From Escherichia coli (GTDB lineage Bacteria; Pseudomonadota; Gammaproteobacteria; Enterobacterales; Enterobacteriaceae): 64,000 bases of DNA. Below, in pieces: positions 40,101 through 43,100 of the stretch. The stretch lies in the NCBI RefSeq assembly GCF_003334305.1, contig NZ_QOWS01000001.1; one strand, 5' to 3'. The number at the start of each line of letters is the position of its first letter. Position 1 is the stretch's first letter. A program made the position numbers.

Positions 40101-43100
40101 CGATTTATCGATTGCCAACGTTATATCGTTAGTGGAGAACGCAGAATGTCTGAATTAAAAATTTCCCCTGAATTATTACAAATTTCCCCGGAAGTGCAGG
40201 ACGCTTTAAAAAACAAAAAACCGGTTGTGGCGCTGGAATCGACCATTATTTCTCACGGGATGCCGTTCCCACAAAATGCCCAGACCGCAATTGAAGTAGA
40301 AGAAACTATTCGTAAACAGGGCGCAGTACCTGCCACTATCGCCATTATTGGCGGCGTGATGAAAGTGGGTTTAAGCAAAGAAGAAATTGAATTACTGGGT
40401 CGTGAAGGGCATAACGTGACCAAAGTTAGTCGTCGCGATTTACCTTTTGTTGTTGCCGCCGGAAAAAATGGCGCAACCACTGTGGCTTCAACGATGATTA
40501 TTGCGGCGCTTGCCGGAATTAAAGTATTTGCCACCGGGGGAATTGGTGGTGTGCATCGCGGGGCGGAACATACCTTCGATATTTCTGCCGATTTGCAAGA
40601 ACTGGCAAATACTAATGTCACCGTTGTTTGTGCCGGGGCGAAATCTATTCTCGATTTAGGATTAACAACAGAATATTTAGAAACCTTCGGTGTGCCGTTA
40701 ATTGGCTATCAGACAAAAGCGCTGCCTGCGTTTTTCTGCCGTACCAGCCCATTTGAAGTCAGTATTCGCCTTGATAGTGCCACGGAAATCGCTCGTGCAA
40801 TGGCAGTGAAATGGCAAACCGGTTTGAACGGCGGCCTGGTAGTGGCGAATCCGATCCCGGAACAGTTTGCGATGCCGGAGGAATCTATCAATGCAGCCAT
40901 AGATCAAGCCGTCGCCGAAGCCGAAGAGCAGGGCGTTATTGGTAAAGAAAGTACACCGTTCCTGCTGGCGCGCGTTGCTGAGCTGACCGGCGGTGACAGC
41001 CTGAAATCCAATATCCAGCTGGTGTTCAACAACGCCATTCTGGCGAGTGAAATTGCCAAAGAATACCAGCGTCTCGCGGGTTAATTTCTGACGGGCAGAA
41101 AGCCGTCGCCCGTACTCATCAAGCATACCAAAACCTGGCGCTGACGCCGGGTTTACTGGCATGAAGGGAAAATCATTATGGATATAATGAGAAGTGTTGT
41201 GGGGATGGTGGTGTTACTGGCAATAGCATTTCTGTTGTCAGTGAATAAAAAGAGCATCAGTTTGCGCACGGTTGGAGCCGCACTGCTGCTGCAAATCGCT
41301 ATTGGTGGCATCATGCTCTACTTCCCACCGGGAAAGTGGGCAGTAGAACAGGCGGCATTAGGCGTTCATAAAGTGATGTCTTACAGTGATGCCGGTAGCG
41401 CCTTCATTTTTGGTTCGCTGGTTGGGCCGAAAATGGATGTCCTGTTTGACGGTGCGGGTTTTATCTTCGCCTTTCGCGTACTTCCGGCGATTATTTTCGT
41501 TACTGCGCTCATCAGTCTGCTGTACTACATTGGCGTGATGGGGCTGCTGATTCGCATCCTTGGCAGCATTTTCCAGAAAGCTCTTAACATCAGCAAAATC
41601 GAATCTTTTGTCGCAGTCACAACTATTTTCCTCGGGCAAAATGAGATCCCGGCGATCGTTAAACCGTTTATCGATCGCATGAATCGCAACGAGTTGTTTA
41701 CCGCAATTTGTAGCGGGATGGCGTCCATTGCTGGTTCGATGATGATTGGTTATGCCGGAATGGGCGTACCAATTGACTACCTGTTAGCGGCATCGCTGAT
41801 GGCGATCCCAGGTGGTATTTTGTTTGCACGTATTCTTAGCCCGGCCACCGAGCCTTCACAGGTCACATTTGAAAATCTGTCGTTCAGCGAAACGCCGCCA
41901 AAAAGCTTTATCGAAGCGGCGGCGAGCGGTGCGATGACCGGGCTGAAAATCGCCGCTGGTGTAGCGACGGTGGTAATGGCGTTTGTCGCAATTATTGCGC
42001 TGATCAACGGCATTATCGGCGGAATTGGTGGCTGGTTTGGTTTCGCCAATGCCTCTCTGGAAAGTATTTTTGGCTATGTGCTGGCACCGCTGGCGTGGAT
42101 CATGGGTGTGGACTGGAGTGATGCCAATCTTGCGGGTAGCCTGATTGGGCAGAAACTGGCGATTAACGAATTCGTCGCTTACCTGAGTTTCTCCCCATAC
42201 CTGCAAACGGGCGGCACGCTGGAAGTGAAAACCATTGCGATTATCTCCTTTGCGCTTTGTGGTTTTGCTAACTTTGGTTCTATCGGTGTTGTCGTTGGCG
42301 CATTTTCGGCTATTTCGCCAAAACGCGCGCCGGAAATCGCCCAGCTTGGTTTACGGGCGCTGGCAGCAGCAACGCTTTCCAACCTGATGAGTGCGACCAT
42401 TGCCGGGTTCTTTATTGGTTTAGCTTGAGTTTCATTGCCGGATGTATGCGCTTATTAAGTGTTGCATCCGGCAATCGCGCTATTGCAAATAATTTTTACT
42501 GCATCATCCCGGAGAATTTATTCTCCGGGTCCATCTCCAGCGCCAGTCCTGACAACTGCTTTCTGTTTTTAATTAGATACCCTTTCTTGCTTTTAATTAA
42601 TAAACCGTCGTGAATGAATTGCGCGAGAACATATAAAAGATGTCGATAAGAAACGCCTAAATACTCTGCCGCTTGCGTATGCTTTTCGTGATAAAGATCA
42701 CCTTCCTGCGAGAGTAATATAAATGCTGCCAGGCGATTCACTAACGGAAATGATTGATTCTGAGTTAAAGAAACAATATTACGATAATTTTTATGACTTA
42801 AGGTGACGCAGAGTTTTCGTAAAAATAGCGTGTCGTTTAATAACCGCGGGCGGTAATGTTTCATAGGGAGCGCAAGGCACCAACACTCTTCAATAGCCTG
42901 CACCGCACGCGGTTCATGGTCTTTGTCAATTAACTCAATCTCGCCAATAAAACAGGGGGCGGCAAAGAAATCGATCAGCGACACGCGACCATTAGCTAGC
43001 GTGGCGTAAAGCCTGGCGCGGCCTCGCGTCAGGTAAAACAGCCAGGACGGCTGTTGCCCTTCCTGCACAATGTAGTCACGCGCTAAAAAATGAAACAGCC

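What the first reader, a model, noticed from the sequence alone, without database searches (positions are those of the whole stretch)
41089..41111. Identical 19-nt leader element upstream of both NupC-type transporter genes
GGGCAGAAAGCCGTCGCCC occurs at about 41093-41111 (67 nt before the psuT start) and again at about 44321-44339 (26 nt before the yeiJ start), each time preceded by TGA(C/T). Both copies are followed by a similar CATGAAG(G/A)G...ATCA(T/C)TATG ribosome-binding region. The psuT leader carries an extra ~40-nt insert with its own dyad (CTGGCGCTGACGCCGGG). Conservation in non-coding leaders of duplicated genes points to a shared cis-regulatory RNA or protein-binding element, or to a recent duplication that included the 5' UTR.
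Basis: seen in the sequence. Interest (0 to 1): 0.4.

Follow-up and report, generated by a model that had tools for sequence, protein, structure and literature searches.

The report
Conserved RNA hairpin before nucleoside-transporter genes
The repeated 19-base sequence is the core of a small RNA hairpin, kept by selection in front of two related nucleoside-transporter genes in E. coli and its relatives; it is real, unannotated and probably tunes transporter expression within the operon message, but its function is untested.

Summary
In detail: GGGCAGAAAGCCGTCGCCC occurs exactly twice in the window (41093-41111, 44321-44339), between psuG and psuT and between rihB and nupX.

- **Not chance, not a recent duplication.** The two transporter genes match at only 51% of third codon positions.
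- **Widespread.** In 25 orthologous leaders from about 15 enterobacterial genera, 21 carry a 19-nt version at the same place.
- **Selective pattern.** Outer arms are 94% identical pairwise, against 53% for synonymous sites. Positions 7, 8, 9 and 12 drift freely (41%).
- **Base pairing.** The pairs flanking the 19-mer covary: C-G 12, U-A 5, U·G 2, unpaired 1. The window's own two copies differ this way (C…G versus T…A). The G·U pairs point to sense-strand RNA.
- **Same place, other hairpins.** Entomohabitans psuT and the Serratia/Hafnia group carry a different hairpin at this position.
- **Unannotated.** There is no Rfam match, no RefSeq annotation and no literature. E. coli genomes hold only these two copies.

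Best reading: a structural stem-loop in the transporter cistron's leader that acts on decay or translation of the polycistronic mRNA. The mechanism is inferred, not shown. Interest is modest: a new member of a known kind.

The parts
41091..41113 (+). Hairpin 1, psuT copy. The 19-nt core is 41093-41111 and two flanking pairs extend the stem (A41091-U41113, C41092-G41112). It starts 8 nt after the psuG stop codon, and 66 nt separate the core from the psuT ATG.
   Evidence: Exact match. Fold -11.1 kcal/mol for 27 nt, z = -2.2. Covariance model 39.3 bits. Stem pairs covary across 20 leaders.
44320..44340 (+). Hairpin 1, nupX copy. The 19-nt core is 44321-44339 and the flanking pair U44320-A44340 is compensatory relative to C-G in the psuT copy. 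It lies 55 nt after the rihB stop codon, and 25 nt separate the core from the nupX ATG.
   Evidence: (35.5 bits).
41112..41130 (+). A/C-rich, G-poor linker (GTACTCATCAAGCATACCA), predicted mostly single-stranded. Its ATCARRC / CATACCAAAAC motifs are shared with several nupX-type leaders and are deleted in the window's nupX leader.
   Evidence: Leader alignments.
41131..41154 (+). Hairpin 2 (AAACCTGGCG-CTGA-CGCCGGGTTT): a 10-bp stem whose loop varies between species, followed by only 3-4 U. It is present in psuT-type leaders and in K. spallanzanii nupX and deleted in the other nupX leaders. It looks like a weak terminator or attenuator.
   Evidence: Fold -18.1 kcal/mol, z = -4.5. Conservation and loop variation. 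Not called as a terminator by the scan.
41157..41177 (+). Shared translation-initiation block of psuT (TGGCATGAAGGGAAAATCATT, containing the Shine-Dalgarno AAGGGA).
   Evidence: Homologous to 44344-44364. Conserved across genera.
44344..44364 (+). Shared translation-initiation block of nupX (TGACATGAAGAGATAATCACT).
44278..44311 (+). Separate hairpin just after rihB (AGCCGGGCC-N16-GGCCCGGCT). It is not homologous to anything in the psuT leader, its sequence drifts within E. coli, and other genera have other hairpins here.
   Evidence: Fold. Variation.
40146..41084 (+). psuG (pseudouridine-5'-phosphate glycosidase), the gene upstream of copy 1.
41178..42428 (+). psuT (NupC-family CNT transporter).
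43324..44265 (+). rihB (ribosylpyrimidine nucleosidase), the gene upstream of copy 2.
44365..45615 (+). nupX (NupC-family CNT transporter, paralog of psuT; 88% amino-acid and 79% nucleotide identity).

Best explanation
Shown: the 19-mer is the core of a sense-strand RNA stem-loop. The stem has 6 pairs: two flanking pairs plus GGGC/GCCC. The 11 inner nucleotides are partly paired. The hairpin belongs to the leader of the PsuT/NupX family of nucleoside-transporter genes, was already present when the transporter gene and its leader duplicated, and has since been kept by purifying selection in both paralogs across core Enterobacteriaceae. Inferred: it works in cis and mainly through its structure, inside the polycistronic psuK-psuG-psuT and rihB-nupX messages. 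It would act as a boundary hairpin of the kind that shapes differential decay within operons. In that role it either caps the 5' side of the transporter segment after an upstream endonucleolytic cut and keeps the roughly 36-nt ribosome landing region free of upstream pairing, or it blocks 3'-to-5' exonucleases so that the enzyme cistrons outlive the transporter cistron. Either way it sets the ratio of transporter to enzyme. I favour the role tied to the downstream cistron because the hairpin travels with the transporter gene and keeps its distance to the start codon, not to the upstream stop codon.
For: Conservation: 21 of 25 leaders have a 19-nt RGGY-N11-GCCY hairpin. Mean pairwise identity is 0.94 for the outer stem and 0.87 for the arms, against 0.53 for CDS third positions and 0.41 for positions 7, 8, 9 and 12. 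Covariation: pair -1/+1 is CG 12, UA 5, UG 2, other 1; pair -2/+2 is AU 11, GC 3, GU 1, other 5; pair 1/19 is GC 19, AU 1; pair 4/16 is CG 18, UG 2. None of 500 shuffles reaches the observed covariation score, and the slid controls are much lower. RNAalifold finds the same 6-bp stem on its own. The flanking pairs were not used to select the sequences. They pair in 19/20 real leaders against 47% of 120 chance matches to the core (Fisher 4e-5). G·U pairs are valid only on the + strand. Structure rather than sequence seems to matter: Entomohabitans psuT and the Serratia, Hafnia and Klebsiella sp. leaders have different stable hairpins at the same place, and Leclercia and Ent. hormaechei nupX have a fully paired 19-nt version. 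Linkage to the transporter: the distance from the hairpin to the ATG is 36-48 nt (40-44 nt net of hairpin 2), while the distance from the upstream stop codon to the hairpin ranges from 8 to 65 nt and the upstream gene differs. No U-tract follows the hairpin and no promoter-like site is nearby. Published TSS mapping lists none at either junction. psuG and psuT change together in transcriptomes. Hairpins without a U-tract at cistron boundaries, conserved in Salmonella and Enterobacter, are the documented agents of differential operon decay in E. coli (PMC5927463).
Against: There are no expression, RNA-end or decay data for these poorly expressed operons, which are absent from the tables of PMC5927463 and PMC7815308. 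The mechanism is therefore inference only. Inner positions G10, C11, G13 and U14 are conserved more than a plain stability hairpin requires. The stem is short (-8 to -12 kcal/mol in most species), which is weak for an exonuclease barrier. The inner-stem register is ambiguous. The sample is 20 related sequences, so shuffle statistics overstate significance. A genomic SELEX RpoS-holoenzyme peak inside psuG (PMC5493296) leaves open an internal promoter, and therefore a different transcript architecture.
Confidence: 0.45

Rival explanations
1. The hairpin is a sequence-specific recognition site for a trans-acting factor (an RNA-binding protein, a small RNA or a small ligand) that co-regulates both transporter paralogs after transcription.
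For: Unpaired or weakly paired inner positions (A5, G6, G10, C11, G13, U14) are conserved in 17-19 of 20 leaders, while positions 7-9 and 12 drift. The same element serves two functionally related transporters. The GGGC/GCCC stem is kept nearly invariant rather than drifting by covariation.
Against: Leclercia and Ent. hormaechei nupX change the inner nucleotides to a perfect helix with a CCCGG loop. Entomohabitans psuT and the Serratia/Hafnia group replace the whole hairpin with unrelated ones. There is no Rfam family. No RNA-binding protein is encoded in either module. No conserved pseudoknot or second helix was found, since hairpin 2 is dispensable in nupX leaders. A single hairpin with 11 inner nucleotides is very small for a ligand pocket.
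Confidence: 0.25
2. It acts during transcription as a pause or anti-pause hairpin. Alternatively it is the structured edge of a Rho-dependent attenuator that uses the C-rich, G-poor linker downstream (with hairpin 2 as a weak intrinsic terminator in psuT-type leaders), limiting read-through into the transporter gene.
For: The linker 41112-41130 is C-rich and G-poor. Hairpin 2 has an A-tract, a GC stem and 3-4 U. The untranslated gap of about 95 nt between cistrons could admit Rho.
Against: No U-tract follows hairpin 1. Most nupX leaders lack both hairpin 2 and most of the C-rich linker, yet keep hairpin 1. The terminator scan calls nothing here. 3'-end mapping lists no end in these genes, although expression is low.
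Confidence: 0.12
3. It is a double-stranded DNA operator: an interrupted palindrome GGGC-N11-GCCC bound by a dimeric transcription factor such as YeiL or YeiI, controlling an internal promoter for the transporter gene.
For: It has dyad symmetry. The regulators YeiL (CRP/FNR family) and YeiI (HTH plus kinase) are encoded next to the modules. An RpoS-holoenzyme SELEX peak lies inside psuG.
Against: Changes in the stem are of the G·U type on the sense strand (4 independent) rather than symmetric or random (1 C·A). Covariation of flanking pairs is not expected for an operator. No sigma-70-like promoter lies on the + strand near either copy, and no TSS is reported there. The element occurs in genomes lacking an adjacent yeiL or yeiI. 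By my coordinate estimate the SELEX peak lies about 300-400 bp upstream.
Confidence: 0.05
4. It has no function: it is a relic of the duplicated leader kept identical in E. coli by gene conversion between the tandem paralogs.
For: The two E. coli copies agree even at the four freely varying positions (chance about 0.035). The Kluyvera and Ent. hormaechei pairs differ at 4 and 9 of 19 positions. Conversion-like spikes of third-position identity occur elsewhere in the paralog pairs.
Against: Conversion cannot explain conservation in genomes with only one paralog (E. albertii, Citrobacter, Salmonella, Buttiauxella, K. michiganensis and others) or the compensatory changes. The adjacent coding sequence is not converted: identity is 75% over the first 300 nt, and third-position identity over the first 180 codons is 0.46. 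There is no homology upstream of the patch to support a conversion tract.
Confidence: 0.05

Closest known systems
Protective intercistronic or boundary RNA hairpins of differential operon decay (the malE-malF intergenic structure, the papBA 5' structure; genome-wide in E. coli, Dar & Sorek 2018, PMC5927463)
   Same: A stable stem-loop without a U-tract sits at a cistron boundary inside a polycistronic message. It is conserved among E. coli, Salmonella and Enterobacter, and its position is compatible with a 3' exonuclease block for the upstream segment or a 5' cap for the downstream segment.
   Different: No RNA-end or half-life data exist for these operons. The stem is short (6 pairs plus weak inner pairs). 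The malE-malF element is a multicopy REP, whereas this has two copies per genome. Most structures in that study lie inside coding regions, whereas this one is intergenic.
5'-UTR stabiliser hairpins such as ompA hp1 (established knowledge)
   Same: A hairpin is followed by a single-stranded segment and then the ribosome-binding site. The spacing to the start codon is roughly constant.
   Different: ompA hp1 sits at the very 5' end of a primary transcript. Here no 5' end (primary or processed) has been mapped next to the hairpin.
Rho-independent terminators and attenuators
   Same: A GC-rich stem-loop lies downstream of a gene. Hairpin 2 of the psuT leader has an A-tract, a GC stem and a short U run.
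   Different: Hairpin 1 has no U-tract at all. Hairpin 2 has only 3-4 U and is absent from most nupX leaders.
REP/BIME extragenic palindromes
   Same: A small GC-rich extragenic palindrome between genes of an operon.
   Different: There are two copies per genome instead of hundreds, and the sequence is unrelated to the REP consensus. True REP-like hairpins lie after psuT and nupX in this window.
Small hairpin riboswitches and protein-binding hairpins (preQ1-I, lambda boxB)
   Same: A short hairpin in a leader with some conserved loop nucleotides.
   Different: There is no Rfam match, no conserved tail or pseudoknot, no boxA, and the loop is replaced wholesale in some lineages.

Membership tests
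Conserved structured cis RNA element (generic) | Base pairs maintained by compensatory changes across homologs | tested here: met
   3 of 6 stem pairs have double changes. None of 500 shuffles reaches the observed covariation, and slid controls are lower. Flank pairing is 19/20 against 47% in chance matches.
Conserved structured cis RNA element (generic) | Conservation above the neutral rate in orthologous positions | tested here: met
   Outer-stem identity 0.94 against 0.53 at synonymous sites for the same sequence pairs.
Protective hairpin of differential operon decay | Stable hairpin without a U-tract at a cistron boundary inside one transcription unit | tested here: met
   No promoter-like site or reported TSS lies between the cistrons. 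Co-transcription itself is inferred.
Protective hairpin of differential operon decay | RNA 3' or 5' ends map at the hairpin, and flanking segments have different half-lives | not testable with these tools
   These genes are absent from the published tables.
Rho-independent terminator | Stem-loop immediately followed by a U-rich tract | tested here: not met
   Hairpin 1 is followed by GUACUCAU (psuT copy) and AAUAUGAC (nupX copy). The scan reports nothing at either copy.
REP/BIME | High copy number in the genome | tested here: not met
   Median 2 and maximum 3 places per genome in 5,425 E. coli genomes.
Any Rfam family (riboswitch, leader, sRNA) | Covariance-model match at or near the gathering score | tested here: not met
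   The best overlapping hit is isrJ at 18.9 bits against a gathering score of 37, E = 8.5.
Leader peptide or small ORF | Codon-wise conservation in some frame | tested here: not met
   Variants give a stop codon (Ent. asburiae, frame 1) or radical replacements in all frames on both strands (sequences). The upstream ATG is lost in one E. coli strain.
Palindromic DNA operator | Position at a promoter, and half-site conservation without a need for complementarity | tested here: not met
   No promoter-like site. Complementarity, including G·U, is what is conserved.
Lambda nut-like boxB antitermination site | 5-bp stem with a GNRA-like pentaloop and an upstream boxA | tested here: not met
   Neither the loop nor the flanks fit. 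The comparison with the boxA/boxB consensus is from memory.

The most novel reading that the evidence does not exclude
Hairpin 1 is the recognition site of a still unknown post-transcriptional regulator (a protein, an sRNA, or a nucleoside-type ligand binding a minimal hairpin). This regulator would coordinate the two CNT transporter paralogs, for pseudouridine and for pyrimidine nucleosides, across Enterobacteriaceae: a small dedicated RNA regulon in E. coli K-12 that has escaped annotation.
Probability: 0.15. Interest if true: 0.6.

Novelty: new member of a known kind. Interest (0 to 1): 0.3.

Why it matters
It adds an unannotated, covariation-supported RNA structure to the best-studied bacterial genome. 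It also gives a concrete handle on how the poorly understood psuKGT and rihB-nupX nucleoside-salvage operons balance enzyme and membrane-transporter output. psuT and psuG are now being engineered for pseudouridine production (PMC10552469, PMC13090712), so a leader element that sets transporter expression has practical use. If the hairpin proved to be a specific regulator-binding site, it would define a small new post-transcriptional regulon. If it is a decay or translation boundary hairpin, it is one more example of a known principle.

Tried and rejected
- **Rfam scan** of 38000-47000 at E up to 10 gave only noise.
- **Metagenome scan** with GGGCAGBNNGCNGTCGCCC gave 120 hits, all chance matches in GC-rich environmental contigs with no PsuT-like gene. 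It was useful only as a null set.
Orthologs were obtained through protein clusters instead.
- **Covariance model R1** found no further copies in the window or in 84 loci, including distant NupC-family loci.
- **A coding reading** of the element (leader peptide, antisense ORFs 40698-41162 and 44310-44627) was rejected from the variant sequences.
- **The Shine-Dalgarno-sequestering helix** (CUCAUCAAGC with GCAUGAAGGG) in the E. coli psuT fold is not conserved in Citrobacter or Enterobacter, so it was rejected.
- **Alternative pairing** between hairpin 1 and hairpin 2 (an antiterminator-type switch) gives only 4 bp, and hairpin 2 is absent from most nupX leaders, so it was rejected.
- **A promoter in or before the element** is not supported: no consensus match was found.
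- **A pseudoknot** between the loop GC and the downstream CUGGC shows no covariation.
- **Literature searches** under the current and older gene names, and for sRNA links, found nothing on these leaders.
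Full report
**Observation**

The 19-mer GGGCAGAAAGCCGTCGCCC occurs exactly at 41093-41111 and 44321-44339 on the + strand. No other match with up to three mismatches exists in the window, and none is expected from shuffles.

The similarity extends to 26 of 28 bases (41084-41111 vs 44312-44339). After a 41-nt length difference it resumes at 41157/44344 and runs through the ribosome-binding region into the coding sequences.

**Context**

The window is E. coli. The gene order is psuK (39217-40158), psuG (40146-41084) and psuT (41178-42428) on the + strand, then yeiL (42496-43194) on the - strand, then rihB (43324-44265) and nupX (44365-45615) on the + strand, then yeiI (45671-46759) on the - strand.

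Each copy lies between an enzyme gene and a NupC-family transporter gene on the same strand. PsuT and NupX are paralogs with 88% amino-acid and 78.7% nucleotide identity, but only 51% identity at third codon positions. Neutral sites are therefore close to saturation, and an uninterrupted 19-nt match in non-coding DNA is not what an old duplication leaves by chance.

**Related sequences**

I collected 25 leaders of this transporter family from about 15 genera:
- Leaders following psuG came from Escherichia, Citrobacter, Enterobacter, Kluyvera, Klebsiella michiganensis, Entomohabitans, Serratia, Hafnia and Klebsiella sp. BIGb0407.
- Leaders following rihB came from Escherichia, Salmonella, Buttiauxella, Kluyvera, Leclercia, Ent. 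hormaechei, Superficieibacter, Entomohabitans, K. spallanzanii, Dryocola and strain H11S18.

Twenty-one of the 25 have a 19-nt sequence of the form RGGY-N11-GCCY at the same place. The consensus is GGGCAG-NNN-GC-N-GTCGCCC.

For the same sequence pairs, mean pairwise identities are:

| Region | Identity |
|---|---|
| Outer stem (positions 1-4 and 16-19) | 0.94 |
| Both arms | 0.87 |
| Third codon positions of the adjacent CDS | 0.53 |
| Positions 7, 8, 9 and 12 | 0.41 |

The arms are under purifying selection and the centre is partly free.

**It is an RNA hairpin**

- The pair immediately outside the 19-mer is C-G in 12 leaders, U-A in 5, U·G in 2 and unpaired in 1.
- The next pair out is A-U in 11, G-C in 3, G·U in 1 and unpaired in 5.
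- Pair 1/19 is G-C in 19 and A-U in one (Ent. hormaechei psuT, AGGC…GCCT).
- Pair 4/16 is C-G in 18 and U·G in 2.

None of 500 column shuffles reaches the observed covariation score, and sliding the partners by 1-3 columns lowers all measures. RNAalifold predicts the same six-pair stem without being told.

The two flanking pairs were not part of the pattern used to pick the sequences. In 120 chance matches to the core from metagenomes they pair 47% and 43% of the time, against 19/20 and 15/20 in the real leaders (Fisher 4e-5 and 0.014).

The two copies in the window themselves show the compensation: C41092…G41112 versus T44320…A44340. Single-sided changes in the stem are G·U-type on the + strand in four independent cases and A·C-type in one, which points to the sense transcript rather than to a DNA palindrome.

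The inner register is ambiguous. Either A5 is bulged and G6 pairs with C15, or there is an A5·C15 mismatch followed by G6·U14 and U7·G13. Leclercia and Ent. hormaechei nupX have a fully paired 19-nt version.

**History**

A neighbour-joining tree places the rihB-linked transporters, including E. coli NupX, in one clade beside the psuG-linked ones. The Serratia/Hafnia group branches outside. The hairpin is present in both clades and absent from the outgroup, which has a different long hairpin. It therefore predates the duplication, and the leader was duplicated with the gene.

The ancestral leader had four parts:
- hairpin 1;
- an A/C-rich linker (…ATCAGACATACCAAAAC…);
- hairpin 2 (AAACCTGGCG-loop-CGCCGGGTTT);
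- the block CTGGCATGAAGGGAAAATCATT followed by the ATG.

Most nupX leaders have lost hairpin 2, but K. spallanzanii nupX keeps it. The window's nupX leader (like that of K-12) has a further 12-nt deletion relative to another E. coli strain (L001) and other genera.

The yeiL-rihB-nupX block sits at different chromosomal places in different genera, and the hairpin moves with it.

**What it is not**

- There is no Rfam match.
- RefSeq annotates nothing here, K-12 included.
- E. coli genomes hold only these two copies (median 2 and maximum 3 per genome), so it is not a REP-type repeat.
- The covariance model finds no other copy in the window or in 84 further loci.
- No U-tract follows hairpin 1, and no promoter-like site lies on the + strand nearby.
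- The variants rule out a coding reading in any frame.
- Published TSS mapping lists no start at either junction. By my coordinate estimate it lists a start upstream of psuK.
- Searches of the literature found no description of these leaders.

**Mechanism (inferred)**

Three facts guide the choice:
- Where the 19-mer is missing, another stable hairpin occupies the position (Entomohabitans psuT; Serratia, Hafnia and Klebsiella sp.). Structure therefore matters more than sequence.
- The hairpin is tied to the transporter gene. Its distance to the start codon is 36-48 nt (40-44 nt after subtracting hairpin 2), whereas its distance from the upstream stop codon ranges from 8 to 65 nt and the upstream gene differs.
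- It is a stable stem-loop without a U-tract at a cistron boundary. This is the class shown genome-wide in E. coli to delimit differentially decaying operon segments, and such structures are often conserved in Salmonella and Enterobacter (PMC5927463).

I therefore propose that hairpin 1 is a cis-acting boundary structure of the polycistronic mRNA that sets the stability and/or translation of the transporter cistron relative to the enzyme cistrons (confidence 0.45). Hairpin 2, with its A-tract, GC stem and three to four U, may add weak attenuation in psuT-type leaders.

**What this does not explain**

G10, C11, G13 and U14 are conserved more than a plain hairpin needs. That keeps alive the rival that a trans-acting factor reads the hairpin (0.25). 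Transcriptional pausing or Rho-dependent attenuation (0.12), a DNA operator (0.05) and a functionless relic homogenised by conversion (0.05) are less likely, for the reasons given under the rivals.

**Concerted evolution**

The two E. coli copies agree at all four freely varying positions (chance about 0.035), whereas the Kluyvera and Ent. hormaechei pairs differ at 4 and 9 of 19 positions. Conversion-like spikes of synonymous identity occur elsewhere in these paralog pairs. Some conversion in the Escherichia lineage may therefore explain why the match is perfect, but it cannot explain conservation in genomes that have only one paralog.

**Caveats**

- The sample is 20 distinct, phylogenetically related sequences.
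- Stem positions 1-4 and 16-19 were partly fixed by the search pattern.
- No experimental data exist for these weakly expressed operons.

**Verdict**

The finding is real and is a genuine, previously unannotated conserved RNA hairpin. It is a new member of a known kind, of modest interest.

Noticed in passing
window 44339-44344 (compare L001 5665-5701): The nupX leader of the window, K-12 and two other E. coli strains lacks 12 nt (…ATAACGGGATCAGACC…) that another E. coli strain (L001) and other genera have. This brings the hairpin to 25 nt from the ATG instead of 37. It might relate to the reported poor expression of this operon (from memory).
   Followed up: partly
window 42267-42424 vs 45454-45611 (3' ends of psuT and nupX): Identical runs of 29, 29, 23 and 20 nt occur here, and third-position identity is 0.72-0.81 in the last 96 nt against 0.51 overall. 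This looks like gene conversion between the tandem paralogs. A similar spike occurs at another place in the Entomohabitans pair.
   Followed up: partly
loci L002-L005, L011, L081-L090: The yeiL-rihB-nupX block behaves as a movable cassette. In Escherichia, Kluyvera and Entomohabitans it lies between psuT and yeiI. In Ent. hormaechei it lies before psuK. In Buttiauxella, Leclercia and Salmonella it lies between fruA and nfo. In Dryocola and K. spallanzanii it lies elsewhere. It is absent from E. albertii, Citrobacter and Ent. asburiae.
   Followed up: partly
L093 (E. coli 13C1065T) and L092 (E. coli WP4-W18-ESBL-08): In L093 an IS1 has deleted psuG (3' part), psuT, yeiL and the 5' part of rihB, and the remaining nupX hairpin carries C19 to A, which breaks pair 1/19. 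In L092 nupX is reduced to a 66-nt remnant, but its leader and hairpin remain (with a loop A to G change).
   Followed up: no
L006-L008 (Serratia, Hafnia, Klebsiella sp. BIGb0407), about 60-130 nt before the transporter ATG: The psuG-transporter spacer carries a different, long conserved hairpin (CCTGAAAGGTGGA…CCTTTCAGG). The psuK homolog there is about 372 aa, matching the YeiI length class and suggesting an N-terminal extension (not examined).
   Followed up: no
window 42438-42477 and 45629-45674: REP-like palindromes (…GCCGGATG…CATCCGGC…) follow the stop codons of psuT and nupX. The second gives a weak Rfam naRNA4 (REP-derived) hit of 19.6 bits.
   Followed up: no
window about 40650-40850 (inside psuG; position estimated): A published genomic SELEX screen lists an RpoS-holoenzyme binding peak inside psuG (PMC5493296). 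An internal promoter for psuT would change the transcript model. The coordinate conversion is my own estimate.
   Followed up: partly
window 41161-41187 and 44348-44359: A conserved upstream AUG (in CAUGAAGGG / CAUGAAGAG) opens a mini-ORF of 8 codons (psuT, overlapping the start codon) or 3 codons (nupX). No Shine-Dalgarno sequence precedes it. AUGA…UCAU can also form a 4-bp hairpin that presents the Shine-Dalgarno sequence in its loop.
   Followed up: no
window 44278-44311: The rihB-proximal hairpin varies within E. coli, with changes that keep pairing (for example C to T giving G·U in K-12). Other genera have unrelated hairpins at this spot.
   Followed up: no
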